Assembly: GCA_963662945.1 (NCBI GenBank)
Contig: OY759974.1
Span: forward strand, 832,001 to 896,000
DNA length: 64,000 bases
Direction of reading: 5' to 3'
Origin: Arcobacteraceae bacterium
GTDB lineage: Bacteria; Campylobacterota; Campylobacteria; Campylobacterales; Arcobacteraceae
Positions 24,605 to 47,471 of this stretch are shown one piece after another. The translations under genes and the position numbers were made by a program. Below the pieces are notes generated by a model. The model was not told the origin of the DNA. It made no database searches and worked only from the letters and a program-made list of their open reading frames with translations. Positions within the stretch are counted from its first letter, which is position 1. Every line of letters begins with the position of its first letter.

Positions 24605-25585
24605 TTAAACAGGCAATACCCTAATGTTTTCATCCACTTTTTGTTTCAATGTAGACTCAATAGCATACAATGTTCCTGTACTTCCTGTTGAACAAGATGA
24701 ACATGCTCCTAGATATCTTATATAGATATCATAGTATGGTGTATTTTCTTTAATATCAATAATTTCCATATCTCCACCATCCATTACTAACATTGGTCTA
24801 ATATATTCTTCTATAATTGCATCTACTGCTTTGATTCTTTGAACTATTGTCATTTTATCAAATGAGTTTTCACCACTTTGTGTTGTATCTGCTGCTGCAC
24901 TTAATTTCTCTTGTTCCATTGATGCTTTTACTTCTGCTAAGATATCTACTAGATATACATCTTTTGCTTCATGTCCACCTGGGCGGATACATGATTTACA
25001 GTAACTTCCTGCTGTTGTTTTCTCAATAATCTCTTCTACTGTTTGAAGGTTATTTTCTCTTATTGCATCTACGATATCTTTTCTTGTTTTTCTTGCACAT
25101 TCACAAACGATATCTTGGTTTTCTATTTCACTTCGCTCAACTCCTTTGTATTGTGCTGCTGCTTCAAGGATTACATCGTATGCCATTACTGAACAATGCA
25201 TCTTTTGAGGTGGAACTGCTGGAGTATTTGGTTCATCTCTTAAAAATGCTTCCACTTCTGTATTTGTAATATGGATTGCATCATCTACTTTTCTACCGAT
25301 ACATAGTTCTGCCATAGCATCACTTGAAGCAATAGCTGTACCACAACCGAAGCTTCTAAATTTTGAATCAAGGATTGTATCTGTTTTTTCATCTACCAAC
25401 CAGTAAAGTCTTACTGCATCACCACAAGACTCTGCACCAAAGTCTGCAACAATTAATCTTGCACCTACTTTATCTGCATCTTCTTGAGTAAATTCACCAA
25501 GTGCTCTTGGGTTATTCATTCTATCTTGTACTTTTCTACTATATTGTTCCCAAACGTTTCCTGTAACTAATTCATCTCTTGCCAT
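24605..25585 (-). CDS. nifU: NifU-type Fe-S scaffold
   Basis: Three-domain layout with CGD, FGCG, KMHCS, a Bfd-like CEC..CKSC segment and an Nfu CSSC motif. Confidence 0.93.
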   Translation of the reverse strand: MARDELVTGNVWEQYSRKVQDRMNNPRALGEFTQEDADKVGARLIVADFGAESCGDAVRLYWLVDEKTDTILDSKFRSFGCGTAIASSDAMAELCIGRKVDDAIHITNTEVEAFLRDEPNTPAVPPQKMHCSVMAYDVILEAAAQYKGVERSEIENQDIVCECARKTRKDIVDAIRENNLQTVEEIIEKTTAGSYCKSCIRPGGHEAKDVYLVDILAEVKASMEQEKLSAAADTTQSGENSFDKMTIVQRIKAVDAIIEEYIRPMLVMDGGDMEIIDIKENTPYYDIYIRYLGACSSCSTGSTGTLYAIESTLKQKVDENIRVLPV

Positions 25586-25619
25586 AATATTTTTCCTTTA
25601 TAATTTATTCTCTATTGTA

Positions 25620-26813
25620 TTAATCGTGTAAGTGTACACTAAAAGCTTGTTGTTTTGCATACGTCATAGATATATTTCTAAGACGAACTACAGTTGACTT
25701 CACTTTCTCAATAACATAATCTATCTCTTCTTCTGTTGTAAATTTACTCAATGCAAACATTACTGTTGCATTTGCTATCTCTGTTTTTTCACCTAATGCT
25801 TCAACTACTGCACTTGATTCTAAATCTTCACTTGAACAGCTTGAACCTGTTGAGATATAGATACCATGTTGATTCATATCCCAAAGCATCGCTTCCCCTT
25901 CAACACCTCTAAAAGAGATTGCTACAAGGTTTTTGAGTCTTTTTACTCTTGGTACATAAGATTTTGTATCTGGTATTTTTAGAAGTTCATCTTCTAGTTT
26001 ATTTCTCAATTTTTGTGTTGTATGATCCATAAAAGAGAGGTTTATATTTGCTAGTTCTACAGCTTTTGCCATTGCTGCAACACCGTTATTATAAAGAGAC
26101 CCACCTCTTTTTCCACCCATTACATTTTTTGCACCATGGATAAGTGTTGTATATGGCGCTCCTGCTTTTATATACATTAAACCTACACCTTTTGGTCCAT
26201 GGAATTTATGTGCTGAACAGGTAAAGTAATCTACACCTAAGTCTCTTACATCTACTTTCATTTTCCCCATTGCTTGGGCACCATCACTATGGAAGTATAC
26301 GTTATGTTTTTTTGCAATTTCACTTATTTTTTTAATATCTTGCACTGCACCTGTTTCATTTGAAGCCATAAGAACAGAGATTAAACATGTTTGAGGAGTA
26401 ATTGCTTTTTCTAGTTCATCTAATTTAACAAGACCATTTACATCTGTTCCTACGTAAGTAACTGCCATACCCATATCTTTACAGAATTTCAGTGGAGATT
26501 TTATACTTGAGTGTTCTGCCACTGTTGAAATGATATGATTTCTACTATCACCTTTTAGGAAGTTATGCAAAAATGTTTTTATTACTGCGTTATTCCCTTC
26601 TGTTGTTGAAGAGGTGATGATAATATCATCTGCATCATCTGCACCTATTCCTTCATACAATGTATCATAGGCATCATTTAACAATTTTCTTGCTTCTATA
26701 CCTTTATTATAGATTACATTTATATTTCCGAACTTCTCTATACTCTCACAGTAAACCTTCTGTACTTTTGGGTCTATTGGGGTTGTTGAGTTATTATCTA
26801 AGTATACTTCCAT
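25620..26813 (-). CDS. nifS: NifS-type cysteine desulfurase
   Basis: YLDNN.TT, SAHKFHGPKG and STGSSCSS motifs. Confidence 0.93.
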   Translation of the reverse strand: MEVYLDNNSTTPIDPKVQKVYCESIEKFGNINVIYNKGIEARKLLNDAYDTLYEGIGADDADDIIITSSTTEGNNAVIKTFLHNFLKGDSRNHIISTVAEHSSIKSPLKFCKDMGMAVTYVGTDVNGLVKLDELEKAITPQTCLISVLMASNETGAVQDIKKISEIAKKHNVYFHSDGAQAMGKMKVDVRDLGVDYFTCSAHKFHGPKGVGLMYIKAGAPYTTLIHGAKNVMGGKRGGSLYNNGVAAMAKAVELANINLSFMDHTTQKLRNKLEDELLKIPDTKSYVPRVKRLKNLVAISFRGVEGEAMLWDMNQHGIYISTGSSCSSEDLESSAVVEALGEKTEIANATVMFALSKFTTEEEIDYVIEKVKSTVVRLRNISMTYAKQQAFSVHLHD

Positions 26814-26853
26814 TATTAGCCACCTAATTATTTATTTGTGTAAGTGTAACTTA

Positions 26854-37366: not shown

Positions 37367-37855
37367 ATGGATATAACAAAAATAGCAAACTTTATACTTT
37401 ATATGATAGAAAATAAAGTATCTCATATCAATGATAAAAAACTCTCTATCTTACTTTTTTTGATAGATTATAAATCATTACAAACATATGATATAAAAAT
37501 ATTTGGTGAAGAGTATATCAAAACACCTAGAAATCCTGAACCAAAAATACTTACAGAACTTTTTAATATTATAGCGAACGAAGAAGACTTAGAAGAAGAT
37601 GATGAAAGACTCTATCTCATCCAAGAATTACTTGACTTTGTAGATATAGAGATAGTTAAAAAACCAAACTTTATAGAACTGCAGTTTATAAAAGTTGAGG
37701 AAGAATTTGATAAATCAATCTTCACAAGAAAAGAACTCAAACTAATAGACAGTACTATTGAAAAATACAGAGATACTACAGTTAGAAATATTGCAAATGC
37801 ATGTTTTAAAATAGATAAAGTTCGAGAAACTACAAATGGTGAAGTTATTATTTAA
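37367..37855 (+). CDS. SocA/Panacea (DUF4065)-like protein
   Basis: N-terminus KIANFILY...KKLSILLFLIDY and C-terminal FTRKELKLIDSTIEKY resemble the family. Confidence 0.55.
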   Translation: MDITKIANFILYMIENKVSHINDKKLSILLFLIDYKSLQTYDIKIFGEEYIKTPRNPEPKILTELFNIIANEEDLEEDDERLYLIQELLDFVDIEIVKKPNFIELQFIKVEEEFDKSIFTRKELKLIDSTIEKYRDTTVRNIANACFKIDKVRETTNGEVII

Positions 37856-41720: not shown

Positions 41721-42155
41721 ATGACAAATAAACAAATTTCACAACTTTTTTTAGCTTCAATTATAGCGATACTCATAACTTACTCAATTTTTTTAGGTAA
41801 AGTAAAAACCATCTTCCTATTTTTAGATGCAGCTGTGTATATCTTTGTAGCTATTGCCCTCTTACTTCCTCTATGGCGTTACAAGAAGAAATTAAAAACT
41901 GTTGAGATTATAGATTTTAACAGAAACAGCAATCTTACTTTTCAATCTACAGCTTTGTTTTTTTTATTTTTTCAAGTGATTGATTACATCTATGAAGATG
42001 GTTTTATTGGGATGATAAGCCAATGGATTTTTTACTGGATGATGGGGATAATTGCCTTTATCATTGTCAACATTATGAACTATTATAAAAATGTACAATA
42101 CTACAAACAAGTATTAACTCATGATGCTAAGTATTATCCTTATGAGAATCAATAA
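41721..42155 (+). CDS. Hypothetical multi-TM membrane protein
   Basis: 144-aa hydrophobic ORF. Confidence 0.7.
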   Translation: MTNKQISQLFLASIIAILITYSIFLGKVKTIFLFLDAAVYIFVAIALLLPLWRYKKKLKTVEIIDFNRNSNLTFQSTALFFLFFQVIDYIYEDGFIGMISQWIFYWMMGIIAFIIVNIMNYYKNVQYYKQVLTHDAKYYPYENQ

Positions 42156-42179
42156 CTCCTAAAGTAACTTATTGGTAAA

Positions 42180-42611
42180 ATGATAACTATGATTAAACTT
42201 TCACTTTTATTATTTACCACTTTACTATTTTCAAAATCTACTTTTGAAGATTCTTTTATTACACAATATGAATATGGGAAAATGCTTTATAAAAATCCTA
42301 GAGGCATAAGCTGTAACAAATGCCATGGGGATAATGCAAAAGGAAAAATAATATCAACATTTACACATAAAGTAAAGAAAAAAGAGTATATCTGTACAAT
42401 CCGTACAAAAGATATCACAAATGTTACTTATGAAACTTTTTTACAAACACTTGACCCAAAACTAGAAAAACCAAAAAAGAAATTTGACAGTAGTCAAGTG
42501 TGTGAGAAACTCACCTATGGCAACAGTATGCCAACATACTTTTTAACTCCAGAAGAGTTAAAATCAATTTTCTTTTACTTAAAAAACAAGGATAAATATG
42601 AAACTAAATAG
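42180..42611 (+). CDS. c-type cytochrome
   Basis: Signal peptide, CNKCH and a distal MP. Confidence 0.85.
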   Translation: MITMIKLSLLLFTTLLFSKSTFEDSFITQYEYGKMLYKNPRGISCNKCHGDNAKGKIISTFTHKVKKKEYICTIRTKDITNVTYETFLQTLDPKLEKPKKKFDSSQVCEKLTYGNSMPTYFLTPEELKSIFFYLKNKDKYETK

Positions 42612-43416
42612 ATCCTATTTGATGGTAGCTGGAGATAAAGAAAAGCATCTTGATAAATTAGATGTGCTTAAAACAGATTTTGCTACAGTTAATCTTGAAG
42701 ATGCCGTCCATGATAAAGAGTTTGCTAGAAATCTCGTTGTTAAAAAACTCAAAAATAGAGACAATGGTGATATTGTAGTACGAGTAAATAGTCTAGATAG
42801 TTGTGGTATACAAGATATAGAAATGATAAATATGATAAAACCGTATGCTATACGAATACCAAAAGTTATGTCACTTGAAGATGTAAAATTGGCTTTAAAA
42901 CTAATAGATGAAGATATACAACTACATCTTACGATTGAGACAAAAGAAGCATTTTCACTTTTATCTCAACTTAAAATTGACACTAGAGTTACTACAGTTT
43001 TTTTAGGTATTTTAGACTTATTAGAATCACTTGAATTACCTCAAAATATACTACAACTAGACAATCCAACTATAGATTATATTTTAAGTAAATTTCTTAT
43101 TGATAGTAAAACAGCTGGTCTTCACCCTGTATCTTTTATATATCAAGAGTATAAAGATTTAGGTACCTTTAGAAAATGGTGTATAAAAGAAAAAGCTATG
43201 GGATTTACTTCTAAAGGGTGTACAAGCCCTGGACAAGTTGATGTGGTTAATGAAATTTTTTCAATCAACAATGATGCTATCATCCGAGCCCAATATATTA
43301 AAGAGGTTTTTGAAAAACAACAAGCGTTAGGATGTACAGGTTTTAGTGATGAGAAATATGGTTTTATAGATGAACCTATCTATAAAGATGCTTTACTCGT
43401 TTTAAAAAATAATTAG
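42598..43416 (+). CDS. HpcH/HpaI aldolase/citrate lyase beta (CitE-like) protein
   Basis: RSYLMV, NLEDAV, VRVN, IPKV and TIET motifs. Confidence 0.88.
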   Translation: MKLNRSYLMVAGDKEKHLDKLDVLKTDFATVNLEDAVHDKEFARNLVVKKLKNRDNGDIVVRVNSLDSCGIQDIEMINMIKPYAIRIPKVMSLEDVKLALKLIDEDIQLHLTIETKEAFSLLSQLKIDTRVTTVFLGILDLLESLELPQNILQLDNPTIDYILSKFLIDSKTAGLHPVSFIYQEYKDLGTFRKWCIKEKAMGFTSKGCTSPGQVDVVNEIFSINNDAIIRAQYIKEVFEKQQALGCTGFSDEKYGFIDEPIYKDALLVLKNN

Positions 43417-43435
43417 ACTACTGTACACTATATTC

Positions 43436-43603
43436 ATATAATCCTATGTTAAGTTTTAATTAAGATTAACAAAAAAATTACGCGCGATTTGAAGATGAAT
43501 AGCCAATACGTTAAGGCACTTACAGTTCCAAAATGAATAAAAGAAAATTAACTGCTAAAGCTATTTTCTTTAATCTTAATTAAAACTTAACATATGATTA
43601 TAT
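43436..43603 (+). repeat. Hairpin/MITE-like element, copy 1
   Basis: 34-bp terminal inverted repeats (43436-43469 and 43570-43603, one mismatch) around a 100-bp core homologous to copy 2. Confidence 0.9.
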
Positions 43604-44427
43604 TACAAACTATTTTTATACTGGACAATTTTTTGTCCCGCAAAAAATAACAATAATCCTACCCCACTTACCATAATAATAGTTGCTCCACTTGTTAAGT
43701 CATAACTATAAGATAAAATAAGTCCAAGAAGTGTAAAAAACGTAGATAAAATTCCAGCATAAACCATCATAGATGCTAGTGTATTTGAAAGCTTTTCAGC
43801 TATATAAATAGGAATAGTCAAAAGTGCAATTACAAGAATAAGTCCCACTATTTTTATAGCAACGACTACTGTTAATGCAGATAAAACTAAAATAAGTGTA
43901 TAAAAAAATGGAACATTAATCCCTCGCAAGTTTGCATACTCGCTATCATAAGAAACTGCTAAAATATCTCTATACCAGACACTCATCATAACACTAATAA
44001 CAACAAGTAACCCACCCATATAATATAAATCTTCATCACTTACTGCTAATATTGAACCAAATAAATAACTCATCAAATCTACATTGTATCCAGGAGTTAA
44101 ATCTATTAAAATTATCCCTATTGCCATCCCTATTGCCCAAATAAGACCTATGAAAGTATCTATTCGTGTCCTATTTTTTAGTGTAATAAATGCCATCAAA
44201 AGTGCGGCACCGCAAGCAAATATAGAAGCTCCTAAAAATATAGGAAAACCAAAATAAACAGCTAACCCAATCCCACCATAAGAGGTATGCGCAATTCCTC
44301 CTGCTAAAAAAACCATCCGATTTACAACTATTAGTGAACCTATGATACCAGAGGCAAAACTTACTAAAATACCAGCGATGATAGCATTTTGTATAAACTC
44401 ATATTGCAACATATCTAACATGAACAA
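43603..44427 (-). CDS. znuB: Zn/Mn ABC transporter permease (ZnuB family)
   Basis: GIAHTSYGG, SYLFGSIL and VGLILVIALL motifs. Confidence 0.88.
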   Translation of the reverse strand: MFMLDMLQYEFIQNAIIAGILVSFASGIIGSLIVVNRMVFLAGGIAHTSYGGIGLAVYFGFPIFLGASIFACGAALLMAFITLKNRTRIDTFIGLIWAIGMAIGIILIDLTPGYNVDLMSYLFGSILAVSDEDLYYMGGLLVVISVMMSVWYRDILAVSYDSEYANLRGINVPFFYTLILVLSALTVVVAIKIVGLILVIALLTIPIYIAEKLSNTLASMMVYAGILSTFFTLLGLILSYSYDLTSGATIIMVSGVGLLLFFAGQKIVQYKNSL

Positions 44428-45179
44428 CTCTTTTTTGTAGTCTGAACAGTTCCAGCACTTAACATTTGTAACAACTCCACCTCACAAAAATGCTCATCAC
44501 TACTATCAAAATTTCTCTTTGTGTCACTTATATCATGGTATGATATATTTTTATTGATATGGGCTACTTTTGATGCATATCCAAGAATTACCGAAATATC
44601 ATGACTTACAACTATAATAGTGATAGTTTTATTTAAAATCTTCAATAATTCATATATCTGCTTTTGTCCAGCAACATCTATACTTGCTGTTGGTTCATCA
44701 AGAATAAGTATCTCAGGATGGGCACATAAAGCACGTGCTATCATAACCCTTTGTCTCTGACCACCAGAAAGTGAGCCTATTTTACTTTGAGCAAACTTTT
44801 CCATCCCAACTTGTGCCAATGCACCCATAGCACAAGCTATTTCTTCTTTTTTATACCCTAAAAGCGGTCGTTTGTGTCCTACATGCCCCATCATAACTAC
44901 TTCGATAACTTTAATAGGAAAATCAATGTTGATATTTGTATTTTGTGGTACATACCCCACTTTTGAAAGATTTTTAGAGGGTTCTTGATCGAGTATTTTT
45001 ATGGTTCCATTTTTATAGTTTTCTATCCCTAAAATAAGTTTCAGTAAGGTAGATTTTCCCCCACCATTTGGTCCTATGATTGCTAAGAAATCATTTTTTT
45101 GGACACTAAGATTTATATCTTCTAAAATGATTTGTTTATTGTAGGCAAAAGTGAGGTTTTTTATCTCTATTATAGGCAT
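44415..45179 (-). CDS. znuC: Zn/Mn ABC transporter ATPase (ZnuC family)
   Basis: GPNGGGKST, GYVPQ, LSGGQ, DEPT and a His/Cys tail. Confidence 0.88.
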   Translation of the reverse strand: MPIIEIKNLTFAYNKQIILEDINLSVQKNDFLAIIGPNGGGKSTLLKLILGIENYKNGTIKILDQEPSKNLSKVGYVPQNTNINIDFPIKVIEVVMMGHVGHKRPLLGYKKEEIACAMGALAQVGMEKFAQSKIGSLSGGQRQRVMIARALCAHPEILILDEPTASIDVAGQKQIYELLKILNKTITIIVVSHDISVILGYASKVAHINKNISYHDISDTKRNFDSSDEHFCEVELLQMLSAGTVQTTKKSCSC

Positions 45180-45203
45180 ATGATAACTTTTCTTTTTTAT
45201 TAG

Positions 45204-45218
45204 TGCAACTTAGTTGCA
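45204..45218. promoter_or_regulatory. 7-1-7 palindrome, candidate Fur-family (Zur-like) box
   Basis: TGCAACT-T-AGTTGCA about 25 bp upstream of znuC. Confidence 0.65.
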
Positions 45219-45289
45219 TATTTATTTTGCAATTGTATATCTTATGGGCTTAATTATAACTTATCCTTTTATTTACTTACGATACAATA

Positions 45290-45459
45290 AGCTCAATCTA
45301 GTGTTAAGTTTTACATAAGATTAAAGGAAATAGCTTTATCAGTTAAGTTCTTTTTATTTGTTTAGACACTTAATATGCCTTAACCCAATGGCTATGTATC
45401 TTTAAGTCACGCGTAACTTCTTTGTTAATCTTATGTAAAACTTAACACTAGATTGAGCT
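45290..45459 (-). repeat. Hairpin/MITE-like element, copy 2 (opposite orientation)
   Basis: Perfect 35-bp terminal inverted repeats (45290-45324 and 45425-45459) around a 100-bp core; about 76/100 ungapped matches to copy 1 by hand count. Confidence 0.9.
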
Positions 45460-45496
45460 GTGATACAATTTGTACAATATAATTAAAGGAAACCTT

Positions 45497-45691
45497 ATGG
45501 AAGAGAGATTTATCGTATGTCCTTACTGTAGAGAACATATCTCTATACTTTTAGATACAGGAGTTGAAGGTATTTACAATATCATTGATGATTGTGAAGT
45601 GTGTTGTAGACCTATAGATATAACTTATGGTGTTGAAAACTTAGAGGTTATCGCTTTAGATTATAGAACTATAGAGGGAAATGAATTTTAA
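45497..45691 (+). CDS. CPXCG-type small cysteine-rich protein
   Basis: AAAGGA RBS, CPYC and DDCEVCCRPI. Confidence 0.8.
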   Translation: MEERFIVCPYCREHISILLDTGVEGIYNIIDDCEVCCRPIDITYGVENLEVIALDYRTIEGNEF

Positions 45692-45699
45692 AAAGGAAA

Positions 45700-46294
45700 A
45701 TGATGGGATTTTTAAATAATATGTTCAATAAACTAAAACAGGCTACACGAGATAGATTTGTTTTAAATAAAGAGACAAACTCCATACAAATACTCCTAGA
45801 TAGTTCCCATGAACAATACTTCACACTAGAATTTGACACAATGAATATCAAAACACCACACGATCCAAATATCTTCAAAAGTACTGTCATAGATGCAAAT
45901 AATTCAAACCTTGGAGAACTCTATATAGAGGTAATTCAACTAGACCAAACACGATTGGAAGGGAAGTGCTGGAAGTTGTTTTGATATTTTTATCAAACAA
46001 GAGTTTCCCTCATCAAATTTTGAATTTATAAAAAGTTTTGATGATGATTTTGCTAAATTCACAAAATACCTTGTGGATGACAAATATGAAGTAGGCTTAA
46101 TCTGGTTTTCTTTAAATAAAGAAGATATTTTTATCTTTGATACAAAAGGGAAGCTTTTTAATGACTTACTAAAAATATATGGTGTAGAAAATAATGCTTA
46201 TTTTATAGAAAATTTTGAAACAAATAACTTTGTAGTAAAAAACAGTATTACAAAACTAAATATGATAGAAAACTTTATTGGTCATAAAGAGTAG
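45700..46294 (+). pseudogene. Frameshifted hypothetical gene
   Basis: The frame of ORF 46073-46294 is open back to 45944 (HDWKGSAGSCFDIF...) and overlaps the end of ORF 45700-45984, so one +1 shift would join them. Confidence 0.6.
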
Positions 46295-46325
46295 TGTAGC
46301 TAAGTATTTGTTTTTTTGAGATTCA

Positions 46326-46415
46326 TTAATTATTAAAATAAGTTCGTTATTTACTAATGCTGTAATGTTTTACTCTAATTTTATCTCTCATGATTTCAAA
46401 TAACTTTTTAGCCAT
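46326..46415 (-). pseudogene. intI: Truncated integron integrase N-terminus
   Basis: GGAGA RBS then MAKKLFEIMRDKIRVKHYSISK*RTYFNN*, matching the IntI N-terminal pattern KLLD.VR..IR..HYS..TE..Y. Confidence 0.8.
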
Positions 46416-46495
46416 AATAATCTCCAATCTTAAATAAATATAAAACATAACATAATGTATATTTATTTTCTTATTTAAGGGTATTTTATATAGTA

Positions 46496-46519
46496 TGTTA
46501 TACTAATAGATAGTTAGCT
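46496..46519 (+). other. attI-like site with possible cassette promoter
   Basis: CTAATAGATAGTTAGCT resembles the attI1 simple site CTAAAACAAAGTTAG; TGTTATACT extended -10-like box upstream; lies about 100 bp from the divergent intI start. Confidence 0.55.
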
Positions 46520-46541
46520 TAAAATATGAAAGGTAAAATAG

Positions 46542-47471
46542 ATGGGTATATTTGATTTATTTTCAAAAAGACAAAAAAGACTTCGTGGTGATGTTCCAGA
46601 TGTTTATCAGTATGAAGATATAAATAATAACTTTCGTGTTCAAGTTGTACATATTATAAGAGATACATTTGGAAGAGATCCTAATTATGGAACTCAACAT
46701 TCATCAACTGCATTTCATGAGATACATCGAATTCTTTGTAAAGAATATGGAGTATTTACACTAAAAGAATATGAAGATAATGATTTCAATAGAATTTATA
46801 ATTATTTTTTATCAGTTCAAGATTATGAAAAAGCACTAGATATAATTGAATTGAGTTTTAAAGTAATTGATAAAATTGTTAGAGGTAATCAATACCAAAG
46901 AGATACTTATGAAATAAAAACAACTCCCGATGAAGCAATAAATGAACTAAATGAAAGATTTAAGGAGCATGGAATTGGTTATCAATTTGAATCAAGTGAA
47001 CTTATAAGAATTGATTCTCAAATTATTCATGCGGATGTAGTAAAACCAACTCTAAATATTTTAAAAAATCAAATCTATGCCGGTGCAAATGAAGAATTTT
47101 TAAAAGCACATGAACATTATAGAAATAATAGAAATCAAGAATGCTTAAATGAATGTTTAAAATCTTTTGAAAGTGTTTTAAAAGCAATTTGTAGTAAAAA
47201 TAATTGGGAATATAGTCAAAATGATAATGCAAATAAATTAATAACTATTTGTTTTAATAATAATTTAATTCCAGACTATTTAAAATCACAATTTACATCA
47301 TTACAATCATTATTTACAAGTGGTGTACCAACAATAAGAAATCGTAATTCGGGACATGGACAAGGTGTTGAGCAAAGAAGTGTTACTAATGAAATGACAA
47401 GCTATATGTTACATTTAACAGCAACAAATATATTATTCTTAACAAAGCAAGAAGAACAATTAAACAACTAA
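46542..47471 (+). CDS. AbiJ-like/HEPN (STM4504/CBY_0614-like) candidate anti-phage protein, integron cassette gene
   Basis: LFSKRQK...PDVYQY N-terminus, INELNERFKEHGIGYQ and C-terminal IRNRNSGHGQG (RN...H HEPN/Abi_C-like motif). Confidence 0.75.
   Translation: MGIFDLFSKRQKRLRGDVPDVYQYEDINNNFRVQVVHIIRDTFGRDPNYGTQHSSTAFHEIHRILCKEYGVFTLKEYEDNDFNRIYNYFLSVQDYEKALDIIELSFKVIDKIVRGNQYQRDTYEIKTTPDEAINELNERFKEHGIGYQFESSELIRIDSQIIHADVVKPTLNILKNQIYAGANEEFLKAHEHYRNNRNQECLNECLKSFESVLKAICSKNNWEYSQNDNANKLITICFNNNLIPDYLKSQFTSLQSLFTSGVPTIRNRNSGHGQGVEQRSVTNEMTSYMLHLTATNILFLTKQEEQLNN

What the first reader, a model, noticed from the sequence alone, without database searches (positions are those of the whole stretch)
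43436..45459. Two diverged ~170-bp hairpin elements with co-varying arms and an invariant 100-bp core
Seen: copy 1 (43436-43603) and copy 2 (45290-45459, inverted) each have 34-35 bp terminal inverted repeats around exactly 100 bp. The cores align with no gaps at about 76/100 by hand count. The arms share TGTTAAGTTTTA-nn-TAAGATTAA but differ elsewhere between copies (AT versus CA internally; outer ATATAATCCTA versus AGCTCAATCTAG), and each change is mirrored in the partner arm. Both cores keep nested pairings ATAGC/GCTAT and GTTAA/TTAAC plus a TTACGCG motif. Inference: this is a structure-constrained repeat family (MITE, REPIN/ERIC-like element, ssDNA recombination site or structured RNA). I do not recognise it as a named family, and no transposase is present in the window.
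Basis: partly seen in the sequence, partly recalled or inferred. Interest (0 to 1): 0.8.

Follow-up and report, generated by a model that had tools for sequence, protein, structure and literature searches.

The report
New hairpin mini-transposon (MITE) family
The two hairpins are old copies of a previously undescribed 170-base passenger transposon found in a handful of Arcobacter-family bacteria, whose two arms stay matched and whose middle flips over evolutionary time; it is a new example of a familiar kind of selfish DNA.

Summary
In detail: both ~170-bp hairpin elements exist as described, with 76/100 core identity. They belong to a dispersed family. The window's genome holds 6 full copies and 1 relic. 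Five congeners hold from 1-2 up to about 60 copies; the family occurs in 6 of 184 family genomes and 1 of 22 genera.

It is a MITE. It has 36-bp terminal inverted repeats and an exactly 9-bp AT-rich target duplication. Relatives show a clean empty site for copy 2, and copies insert into one another. No transposase was found in the window, and no autonomous parent was found anywhere searched.

The arm covariation is also real (361 double-sided changes against 105±9 in shuffles). It arises in place at orthologous loci, while the direct-repeat target duplications decay. At 3 of 4 orthologous loci the core is flipped relative to its flanks. There is no orientation bias and no G·U excess.

Best reading: arm-to-arm DNA exchange (recombination or template switching) keeps the arms matched. 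Selection on a hairpin is not excluded, because the subterminal blocks evolve about 3× slower in place. Verdict: a new member of a known kind, of moderate interest.

The parts
43434..43605 (+). MITE copy 1 (172 bp). Left arm 43434-43469, core 43470-43569, right arm 43570-43605. Orientation is given by the asymmetric core motif.
   Evidence: L099:2035-2206. The copy is orthologous in G002 (same way round) and in G025 (core flipped).
43425..43433 (.). Left flank of copy 1, at the position of the expected 9-bp target duplication (degraded).
   Evidence: Read: only 2 of 9 positions match the right flank 43606-43614 in register, or 6 of 7 with a 1-2 nt shift. This is an old insertion shared by three species. 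The G000 copies average 5.0 of 9 matches.
43606..43614 (.). Right flank of copy 1, the degraded partner of the target duplication.
45289..45460 (-). MITE copy 2 (172 bp). Arms 45289-45324 and 45425-45460, core 45325-45424. Inverted relative to copy 1.
   Evidence: L099:3890-4061. The copy is absent from the orthologous intergenic region of G002, G018 and G020.
45280..45288 (.). Target-site duplication of copy 2, left copy.
   Evidence: Matches 45461-45469 at 8 of 9 positions. The empty site in G002, G018 and G020 holds this sequence once.
45461..45469 (.). Target-site duplication of copy 2, right copy.
43603..45179 (-). Two-gene ABC transporter operon (ABC-3 permease 43603-44427 and ATPase 44415-45179) lying between the two copies. 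It is a bystander, not cargo.
   Evidence: Pfam ABC-3 at 8.8e-69 and ABC_tran at 6.9e-32. The query region, which is mostly this operon, matches 26 of 27 congeners whether or not they carry the element; G002 has copy 1 without copy 2.
42598..43416 (+). HpcH/HpaI aldolase-family gene. It ends 17 nt before copy 1.

Best explanation
The two elements are independent, old insertions of a non-autonomous transposon (a MITE) of about 170 bp. Its anatomy is two 36-bp terminal inverted repeats around an asymmetric core of about 100 bp. The core has two strongly conserved subterminal blocks and a free-drifting middle. A transposase supplied in trans, not yet identified, makes 9-bp staggered cuts in AT-rich intergenic DNA; that is the inferred mechanism. 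A DDE-type enzyme is inferred only from the terminal repeats plus the fixed 9-bp duplication. After insertion the copies stay put, but the two arms of each copy keep exchanging sequence with each other, by homologous recombination or replication template switching between the inverted arms. This exchange copies a mutation from one arm into the other, so the arms co-vary without any need for selection, and it occasionally inverts the core. What is shown: family membership, the 9-bp duplication, the empty site, in-place compensated changes and core flips. What is inferred: the type of transposase, and that arm exchange rather than selection keeps the arms matched.
For: Family and mobility:
- G000 holds 6 full copies and 1 half relic, next to unrelated housekeeping genes.
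- The element occurs in 6 of 28 congeners and 6 of 184 family genomes, 1 of 22 genera. Arm-pattern counts reach 56/57 in G012 and 39/41 in G006, against 0-3 in controls.
- A scan of GTDB species representatives gave 97 stretches; 96 lie in five MAG species and 1 is a chance hit.
- Some G012 copies are 95-97% identical to each other, which indicates recent activity.

Target duplication:
- In an 11-nt window at the ends, identity between the two flanks is 0.37, then 0.66-0.76 for nine positions, then 0.35. Of 92 copies, 19 are perfect at 9/9, against 0 of 92 in mismatched-pair controls.
- The duplications are 84% A+T against 71% for the genome.
- The copy 2 site is empty in G002, G018 and G020, with the target present once.
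- Some copies are inserted into other copies (L135, L198).

Arms:
- On 78 aligned copies, 95.8% of cells pair against 84.7±0.3 in shuffles. There are 361 double-sided changes against 105±9, reached by 0 of 500 shuffles. Sliding the partner columns gives 32-50% paired.
- Changes are compensated in place at orthologous loci. For copy 1 against its G002 orthologue, 7 pairs are compensated and 5 are not.
- Decay of the target duplication is not accompanied by arm decay (Spearman 0.12, p 0.24).

A DNA-level rather than RNA-level process:
- The core is flipped relative to its flanks at 3 of 4 orthologous loci. Core identity is 80-93% in element orientation and 28-41% otherwise.
- The outermost asymmetric bases stay with the flank when the core flips.
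- Arm mismatches comprise 30 G.T, 58 A.C and 168 other, mostly A.A and T.T.
- Genes end toward the element on the 5' side 43 times and on the 3' side 30 times.
- Arm integrity does not differ between convergent, co-directional and divergent gene contexts (Kruskal p 0.42).

Literature: template switching between inverted-repeat arms gives arm homogenisation and spacer inversion (PMC8604942, abstract and passages read). It can also maintain hairpins (PMC8794818, listing and start of abstract only).
Against: - No autonomous parent with these ends was found. In the metagenome scan of 32 stretches, 26 have the right arm 106-109 nt after the motif, 5 are cut by a contig end and 1 has its left arm cut off by the contig end. 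The truncated copies run into host genes.
- In the five carrier genomes, Pfam families for IS256, IS1 and IS1595 gave 0 of 5. DDE_Tnp_1 is present only in G006 and G012, and its elements have unrelated ends. ISL3 is a fragment in G006.
- Arm exchange cannot explain two observations. First, the non-palindromic subterminal blocks change about 3× more slowly than the middle at orthologous loci: 9/200 against 28/198, Fisher p 0.0009, with two of the four pairs sharing copy 1. Second, a pair beyond an asymmetric internal loop co-varies perfectly (G-C 58, A-T 20, broken 0 of 78) while the loop stays asymmetric.
- The variable outer arm is more diverged between copies than the middle (0.58 against 0.76 identity in G012).
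- Flipping has not been seen within a population, only between species.
Confidence: 0.6

Rival explanations
1. This is a MITE that has been co-opted, or is selected, as a hairpin. In this reading the long stem, in RNA read from either strand or in extruded or single-stranded DNA, together with the conserved subterminal blocks, does something for the host or the element. Candidate roles are a two-way transcript end or stabiliser, an RNase III target, or a protein-binding site. Selection for pairing would then produce the compensatory changes.
For: - Covariation is strong, including a pair beyond an internal loop with no broken cell in 78 copies.
- The conserved blocks change about 3× more slowly than the middle at orthologous loci.
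- Many copies sit within 0-20 nt of a stop codon.
- Folding is far more stable than shuffles on both strands.
- There is a precedent: the bcr1 repeats of Bacillus are reported to keep an RNA structure by compensatory changes (PMC3184786, passage read).
- A stem used from both strands would also show neither orientation bias nor a G.U excess, so those tests do not exclude this reading.
Against: - Copies occur in every gene context, most often between divergent genes: 25 divergent, 27 co-directional and 17 convergent, of the 69 of 93 copies with both neighbouring genes called. Stems are kept equally well in all three contexts.
- Pairs changed on one side only (wobble-type) are rare, 0-4 per pair, while 20-42 are changed on both sides at the variable pairs.
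- No consensus structure is predicted in the middle 80 nt.
- There is no Rfam match.
- It would require selection on each of up to about 60 selfish copies.
Confidence: 0.27
2. This is an invertible DNA switch. A site-specific recombinase would act on the conserved inner arms and flip the core, which would carry a promoter or terminator. The MITE would then spread phase-variable control to many genes.
For: - The core is flipped at 3 of 4 orthologous loci between species.
- The inner 20 bp of the arms are nearly invariant.
- Outward-facing -35-like hexamers lie in the arms. This is weak: 20 promoter-like sites were found in the region against 13.9±3.5 in shuffles.
Against: - No recombinase gene is linked to any copy examined.
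- Flips are seen only between species, which ordinary recombination between 36-bp repeats can explain.
- The middle of the core is the least conserved part of the core, which is not expected of a regulatory payload.
- Public data are assembled contigs that break at the arms and cannot show mixed orientations.
Confidence: 0.05
3. This is a REPIN/RAYT-type or IS200/IS605-type single-strand element moved by an HUH (Y1) transposase that recognises the hairpin.
For: The structure is a long hairpin with co-varying arms, so shape rather than sequence could be recognised. One Y1_Tnp gene is present in G025.
Against: A fixed 9-bp target duplication is present; from my own knowledge of the IS200/IS605 and RAYT families, these make none. 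Y1_Tnp is absent from 4 of 5 carrier genomes, including G012 and G006, which hold the most copies.
Confidence: 0.02
4. The two inverted copies form a composite transposon carrying the ABC transporter operon.
For: Two copies in inverted orientation bracket the two-gene operon.
Against: - Each copy has its own flanking duplication.
- G002 has copy 1 but an empty copy 2 site, and G020 lacks both copies yet has the operon in the same place.
- The query region, which is mostly this operon, matches 26 of 27 congeners.
Confidence: 0.02

Closest known systems
Chunjie MITE of Geobacter uraniireducens
   Same: It is A+T-rich, 178-235 bp long, has terminal inverted repeats and 9-bp direct repeats at the ends, and is predicted to fold very stably (PMC3184786, passage read).
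   Different: Its terminal repeats are 21 bp, against 36 bp here. It belongs to a different phylum. No sequence comparison was possible because no Chunjie sequence was at hand. That passage does not report arm covariation or core flipping for it.
bcr1 repeats of the Bacillus cereus group
   Same: It is a mobile intergenic repeat of about 155 bp, with non-conserved positions between strains and compensatory base-pair changes reported to keep a folded structure (PMC3184786, passage read).
   Different: It has 5-bp direct repeats, against 9 bp here. The compensation is interpreted there at the RNA level and the element is transcribed. Here no RNA data exist, and the evidence leans to a DNA-level process.
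ERIC/IRU and Correia (NEMIS) elements
   Same: From my own knowledge: they are imperfect palindromes of 100-170 bp dispersed in intergenic DNA and co-transcribed with neighbouring genes.
   Different: From my own knowledge: Correia elements duplicate TA, and ERIC elements are confined to enterobacteria and vibrios. Neither was compared by sequence here. Rfam gave no match to the region.
Template switching / homogenisation of short inverted repeats
   Same: It accounts for both signatures seen here: the arms become or stay identical, and the spacer inverts (PMC8604942, abstract and passages read; PMC8794818, listing and start of abstract only).
   Different: The cases described there have arms of 7-16 bp with spacers of a few bases, inside yeast genes. 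Here the arms are 36 bp around a 100-bp spacer, inside a mobile element with dozens of copies.

Membership tests
MITE (non-autonomous transposon with inverted ends) | Terminal inverted repeats | tested here: met
   The arms are 36 bp, and 95.8% of 3197 pair cells are complementary over 78 copies.
MITE (non-autonomous transposon with inverted ends) | Target-site duplication of fixed length | tested here: met
   The duplication is exactly 9 bp. Of 92 copies, 19 are perfect and 18 match at 8/9, against 0 perfect in controls.
MITE (non-autonomous transposon with inverted ends) | Presence/absence polymorphism with an intact empty site | tested here: met
   The copy 2 site is empty in G002, G018 and G020, with the target present once.
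MITE (non-autonomous transposon with inverted ends) | Small, multi-copy, no coding capacity | tested here: met
   Copies are 170-195 bp. No ORF of 50 aa or more lies inside either window copy. Copy numbers range from 6 to about 60 per carrier genome.
MITE (non-autonomous transposon with inverted ends) | A full-length insertion sequence with the same ends that supplies the transposase | tested here: inconclusive
   None was found in the own genome, 5 carrier genomes, 97 GTDB stretches, 32 metagenome stretches, plasmids or phages. The MAG assemblies may have lost it.
REP/REPIN with RAYT | A linked or genomic Y1 (HUH) transposase, and no target duplication | tested here: not met
   Y1_Tnp is present in 1 of 5 carrier genomes. 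A 9-bp duplication is present.
Any Rfam RNA family | Covariance-model match | tested here: not met
   A permissive scan of window 42000-47000 found nothing on the elements. The only hit was an unrelated snoRNA model at E 0.67 elsewhere.
Integron attC site | Cassette array in one orientation, with core sites in the order R''...R', next to an integrase | tested here: not met
   By inspection, the matching heptamers lie in the reverse order and only in some copies. Copies are dispersed and in both orientations. No integrase was found in the window.
Inverton (recombinase-driven invertible switch) | Both orientations present within one population, and a dedicated recombinase | not testable with these tools
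   Only assembled contigs were available, and they break at the arms. Flips are seen between species only.
Composite transposon | One duplication flanking the whole unit, and the unit moving together | tested here: not met
   The insertions are independent. G002 has copy 1 without copy 2, and the operon is in place without either copy in G020.

The most novel reading that the evidence does not exclude
The element is more than a fossil transposon. It would be a dispersed, orientation-free hairpin module whose stem and two subterminal blocks are kept by selection at each locus. It could act, for example, as a two-way transcript end or processing site, or as the binding site of a host protein. 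Its flippable core could also make it a mobile, copy-and-paste DNA switch.
Probability: 0.2. Interest if true: 0.65.

Novelty: new member of a known kind. Interest (0 to 1): 0.4.

Why it matters
It adds a MITE family to a bacterial phylum for which the passages I retrieved from two reviews name none. Term searches within PMC3184786 and PMC10969869 found no occurrence of Campylobacter, and PMC10969869 none of Helicobacter. Two library searches on Arcobacter and MITEs found nothing relevant.

More usefully, it is a clean natural experiment. Each copy carries a direct repeat (the target duplication) that decays, next to an inverted repeat that stays matched. Orthologous copies in sister species show both compensated arm changes and flipped cores. 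This makes the question of whether selection or DNA mechanics produces compensatory changes in hairpins directly countable on dozens of copies.

For annotation, it explains assembly breaks at these sites, and it warns against reading covariation alone as proof of a functional RNA.

Tried and rejected
- Rfam: a permissive scan found nothing on the elements.
- Autonomous parent: pairs of arms 1.9 kb and 3 kb apart in G006 enclose ordinary host genes, namely a phosphate transporter, HisRS and an M50 protease.
- G000 self-comparison: the dispersed repeats I annotated by Pfam are paralogous chemoreceptor, NifS/NifU and AmtB/GlnK/GlnA genes; rRNA operons and tandem arrays were set aside; no insertion sequence was seen.
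- DDE_Tnp_1 elements of G006 and G012: BLAST against all 93 copies gave no hit, and their ends, read by eye, are unrelated.
- The only rve-domain gene of G000 sits in a TnsA/TnsB/TniB cluster, a Tn7-like element. From my own knowledge Tn7-like elements duplicate 5 bp, so it was rejected as the mobiliser.
- Plasmid and phage collections: no match.
- Sequencing runs: no RNA holder is listed.
- Laying contigs of four runs: the contigs break at the arms, so they can show neither orientation nor expression.
- Three reverse-strand arm-like hits in G008, and one in G000 at 250231, belong to a different repeated sequence and were treated as chance resemblance.
- An attC reading was dropped on inspection.
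- A first guess of an 8-bp duplication plus 3 variable bases was replaced by 9 bp plus fixed T...A ends after the position-wise count.
- Alignment A2 holds 78 of the 93 copies; the 15 long-form copies were left out.
Full report
The sequence at 43300-45600 and the repeat finder show two elements. Copy 1 has arms 43436-43475 / 43564-43603 (40 nt, 93% complementary). Copy 2 has arms 45290-45324 / 45425-45459 (35 nt, 100% complementary, 100 nt between them). The copies are inverted relative to each other, 160 nt at 79%. Copy 1 folds far better than shuffled sequence on either strand (z -8.0 and -7.8; 0 of 200 shuffles reach either value). Rfam has nothing on the elements. The window has no transposase among 54 ORFs of 110 aa or more.

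**2. It is a dispersed family.** The window's genome (G000, one contig, 2.50 Mb) holds six full copies and one 5' half relic. All are intergenic and lie next to unrelated housekeeping genes: an HpcH-family aldolase, an ABC-3 transporter, phosphoglucomutase and FBPase, an FGGY kinase, RecN and Asd, and MltC and QueA. Among congeners the element occurs in 6 of 28 genomes. In the taxonomic family it occurs in 6 of 184 genomes, 1 of 22 genera.

An arm pattern with up to one mismatch occurs at these forward/reverse counts:

| Genome | Forward / reverse |
|---|---|
| G012 | 56 / 57 |
| G006 | 39 / 41 |
| G002 | 9 / 9 |
| G025 | 7 / 8 |
| G000 | 5 / 4 |
| G005 | 1 / 1 |
| All other genomes | 0-3 |
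| Reversed-pattern control | 0-3 |

An exact scan for a 23-letter core motif over one genome per GTDB species gave 97 stretches. Ninety-six lie in five MAG records labelled Arcobacteraceae or Campylobacterota, and one is a chance hit in a Lachnospiraceae MAG. The carriers are scattered through the genus when ranked by identity of the neighbouring operon: 88% and 87% for G002 and G025, 78% for G006, 73% for G005 and 72% for G012, with non-carriers in between. Some G012 copies are 95-97% identical to one another, so the family was active there recently.

**3. It is a transposon, with a 9-bp target duplication.** I extracted 93 distinct full-length copies with flanks. I took an 11-nt window that abuts the conserved element ends and compared left and right flanks position by position. 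Identity is 0.37, then 0.66-0.76 for nine positions, then 0.35. The background measured on mismatched pairs is about 0.35. Of 92 copies, 19 have a perfect 9/9 duplication and 18 have 8/9, while controls have none. The bases next to the duplication are T on the left (60 of 92) and A on the right (72 of 92), so they belong to the element. The duplications are 84% A+T against 71% for the genome.

For copy 2 there is a clean empty site. G002, G018 and G020 carry the same intergenic region with the target present once and no element. In the window the duplication is 45280-45288 and 45461-45469, matching at 8 of 9. Copy 1 is older. It sits at the same place in G002 and G025, and its duplication is degraded. 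Copies are also found inserted into other copies (L135, L198).

Copies 1 and 2 are therefore separate events, not a composite transposon. G002 has copy 1 but not copy 2, G020 has neither, and the query region (mostly the ABC operon between them) matches 26 of 27 congeners.

**4. No parent was found.**
- G000's dispersed repeats that I annotated are paralogous genes, not insertion sequences.
- Its only rve-domain gene lies in a Tn7-like tnsA-tnsB-tniB cluster. From my own knowledge that family duplicates 5 bp, not 9.
- In the five carrier genomes, Pfam models for IS256, IS1 and IS1595 hit 0 of 5. ISL3 hits a fragment in G006, and Y1/HUH hits one gene in G025.
- DDE_Tnp_1 hits only G006 and G012, the two genomes with the most copies. 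However, those elements have unrelated ends, and BLAST against all 93 copies found nothing.
- Widely spaced arm pairs in G006 enclose host genes.
- Of 32 metagenome stretches with the core motif, 26 have the right arm 106-109 nt on, 5 are cut by the contig end and 1 has its left arm cut off by the contig end. None is long.
- Plasmid and phage collections have no match.
- The MAGs are fragmented (200-230 contigs), so absence there is weak evidence.

**5. The arm covariation is real and arises in place.** I aligned 78 short-form copies and left out 15 long-form ones. On this alignment 95.8% of 3197 pair cells are complementary, against 84.7±0.3 in shuffles. There are 361 cells with changes on both sides, against 105±9, reached by 0 of 500 shuffles. 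Sliding the partner columns by 1-3 positions gives 32-50% paired. One arm position shows four pair types: A-T 27, C-G 21, G-C 14 and T-A 7. A pair beyond a conserved asymmetric internal loop is G-C in 58 copies and A-T in 20, and is never broken.

Conserved and variable arm positions alternate. The tip dinucleotide, a CAAT-like patch and the inner 20 bp are nearly fixed. Positions 4-6, 10-16, 18 and 26 are free.

The decisive point is that orthologous copies, identified by matching flanks in sister species, differ by compensated changes:

| Orthologous pair | Compensated pairs | Uncompensated pairs |
|---|---|---|
| Copy 1 vs G002 orthologue | 7 | 5 |
| FGGY-kinase copy vs G002 orthologue | 2 | 2 |
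| Copy 1 vs G025 orthologue | 1 | 2 |
| G002/G025 pair L202/L177 | 1 (plus the pair beyond the loop) | 5 |

The target duplication gives an internal control, because it is a direct repeat with no partner to copy from. It decays to as few as 1-4 matches of 9, while arm mismatches stay near two of 35 regardless (Spearman 0.12, p 0.24).

**6. The core flips.** Four loci are shared between G000, G002 and G025 with both flanks matched. At three of them the core has opposite orientation relative to its flanks in at least one genome. These are copy 1 in G025, the RecN/Asd copy in G002, and L202/L177. Core identity is 80-93% in element orientation but 28-41% when forced into flank orientation. In the copy 1 / G025 pair the outermost asymmetric bases stay with their flank. 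The inversion therefore happened inside the arms, not by excision and re-insertion.

**7. What keeps the arms matched?** Several results argue against a strand-specific RNA:
- There is no orientation bias toward neighbouring genes. Gene ends face the 5' side 43 times and the 3' side 30 times.
- Copies lie between divergent (25), co-directional (27) and convergent (17) genes, with equally good stems in each (Kruskal p 0.42).
- Arm mismatches are mostly A.A and T.T, with 30 G.T against 58 A.C.
- Wobble-type single changes are rare (0-4 per pair), while 20-42 are double changes at the variable pairs.

Exchange between inverted-repeat arms is described in the literature as producing exactly the two signatures seen here, arm homogenisation and spacer inversion (PMC8604942, abstract and passages read). 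It is also described as creating and maintaining hairpins (PMC8794818, listing and start of abstract only). I therefore favour DNA-level arm-to-arm copying, by recombination or template switching.

Two results do not fit this reading alone:
- The non-palindromic subterminal blocks change about three times more slowly than the middle at orthologous loci: 9/200 against 28/198, Fisher p 0.0009, with two of the four pairs sharing copy 1.
- The pair beyond the loop co-varies while the loop stays asymmetric.

Either selection acts on the folded element, or copies also exchange short patches with one another through their identical blocks. A stem used from both strands would also escape my orientation and wobble tests. 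I give the selection reading about one chance in four.

**8. Comparison and novelty.** The closest described elements are listed here.
- Chunjie of Geobacter is A+T-rich and 178-235 bp long, with 21-bp terminal repeats and 9-bp direct repeats.
- bcr1 of Bacillus is about 155 bp long, has 5-bp direct repeats, and is reported to keep its structure by compensatory changes. Both descriptions come from a passage of PMC3184786.
- ERIC and Correia elements resemble this family in general form, from my own knowledge.

I found no description of this family. Two library searches on Arcobacter with MITE terms returned nothing relevant. Term searches within the two reviews found no occurrence of Campylobacter (PMC3184786; PMC10969869) and, in PMC10969869, none of Helicobacter. 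ISfinder could not be consulted. This is a new member of a known kind. Its special value is the built-in comparison of a decaying direct repeat with a self-matching inverted repeat, and the documented core flips.

**9. Limits.**
- No RNA data exist for this organism in the runs offered.
- The laid runs are assembled contigs that break at the arms.
- Covariation counts are not corrected for relatedness of copies.
- The ORF-based gene contexts rest on 270-400 nt of flank and are approximate.
- The transposase type is inferred only from the terminal repeats and the duplication length.

Noticed in passing
window 43603-43605: The stop codon of the ABC-3 permease gene (minus strand) lies in the last three bases of copy 1, so the insertion supplies the end of that reading frame.
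   Followed up: partly
window 45320-45442: A contig of an aquatic metagenome run (X7) joins 45320 to 45442 and skips 121 nt. This leaves a core-less palindrome of the two arms of copy 2. It could be a real deletion derivative in a relative or an assembly artefact at the inverted repeat. Overlapping arm hits without a core also occur in G006 at C95:3637-3664.
   Followed up: no
L089-L094 (G006), L218 (G002), also L133, L146, L199, L209 (G012): A long subfamily of about 185-195 bp carries an extra segment of 22-27 nt just inside the right arm. The segment partly mirrors the conserved left block, which suggests an ancestrally longer inverted repeat. The G002 orthologue of the RecN/Asd copy has the segment and the G000 copy lacks it.
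   Followed up: partly
window 45442-45469 and 45279-45307: Each arm of copy 2 contains an outward-facing -35-like hexamer that pairs with a -10-like hexamer in the flank, one with a TG extension, pointing at the CPXCG-family gene. These are consensus matches only: 20 sites in the region against 13.9±3.5 expected.
   Followed up: no
G025:C3:211163-215114 (L101, L126): Where G000 has copy 2, G025 has about 4 kb of other DNA between the ABC ATPase gene and the CPXCG gene. I did not examine its content.
   Followed up: no
window 46542-47471 and 37367-37855: The first is an AbiJ-like gene (AbiJ_NTD4 plus DUF7014) about 1 kb beyond copy 2. The second is a SocA/Panacea antitoxin-domain gene.
   Followed up: no
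window 24605-26816: A 2.2-kb stretch holding NifU-like and cysteine-desulfurase genes is duplicated at 99.8% identity elsewhere in the genome, at G000 477183-479394.
   Followed up: partly
G000:C1:953374-964719 (outside the window): A perfect tandem array with a 315-bp period spans about 11.3 kb, roughly 36 units at 100% identity. A second array with a 312-bp period lies at 1640354-1645038.
   Followed up: no
G000:C1:1137081-1140270 (L238): A Tn7-like cluster, with TnsA-like, TnsB-like (rve plus Mu-transposase C) and TniB/TnsC-like genes. It is the only rve-domain hit in the genome.
   Followed up: partly
L241-L243 (G008 contig starts) and G000:C1:250231-250249: A different multi-copy sequence in G008 starts three contigs. 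It carries two direct copies of a 20-mer that resembles the element's inner arm at 17 of 19 positions, next to a repeat-like GC-richer segment. G000 has one such arm-like site. I treated this as chance resemblance.
   Followed up: partly
G018:C1:663480-663520 (L245): A solo left arm, the full 36-bp arm followed by unrelated sequence, is a relic of the family in a genome that otherwise lacks it.
   Followed up: no
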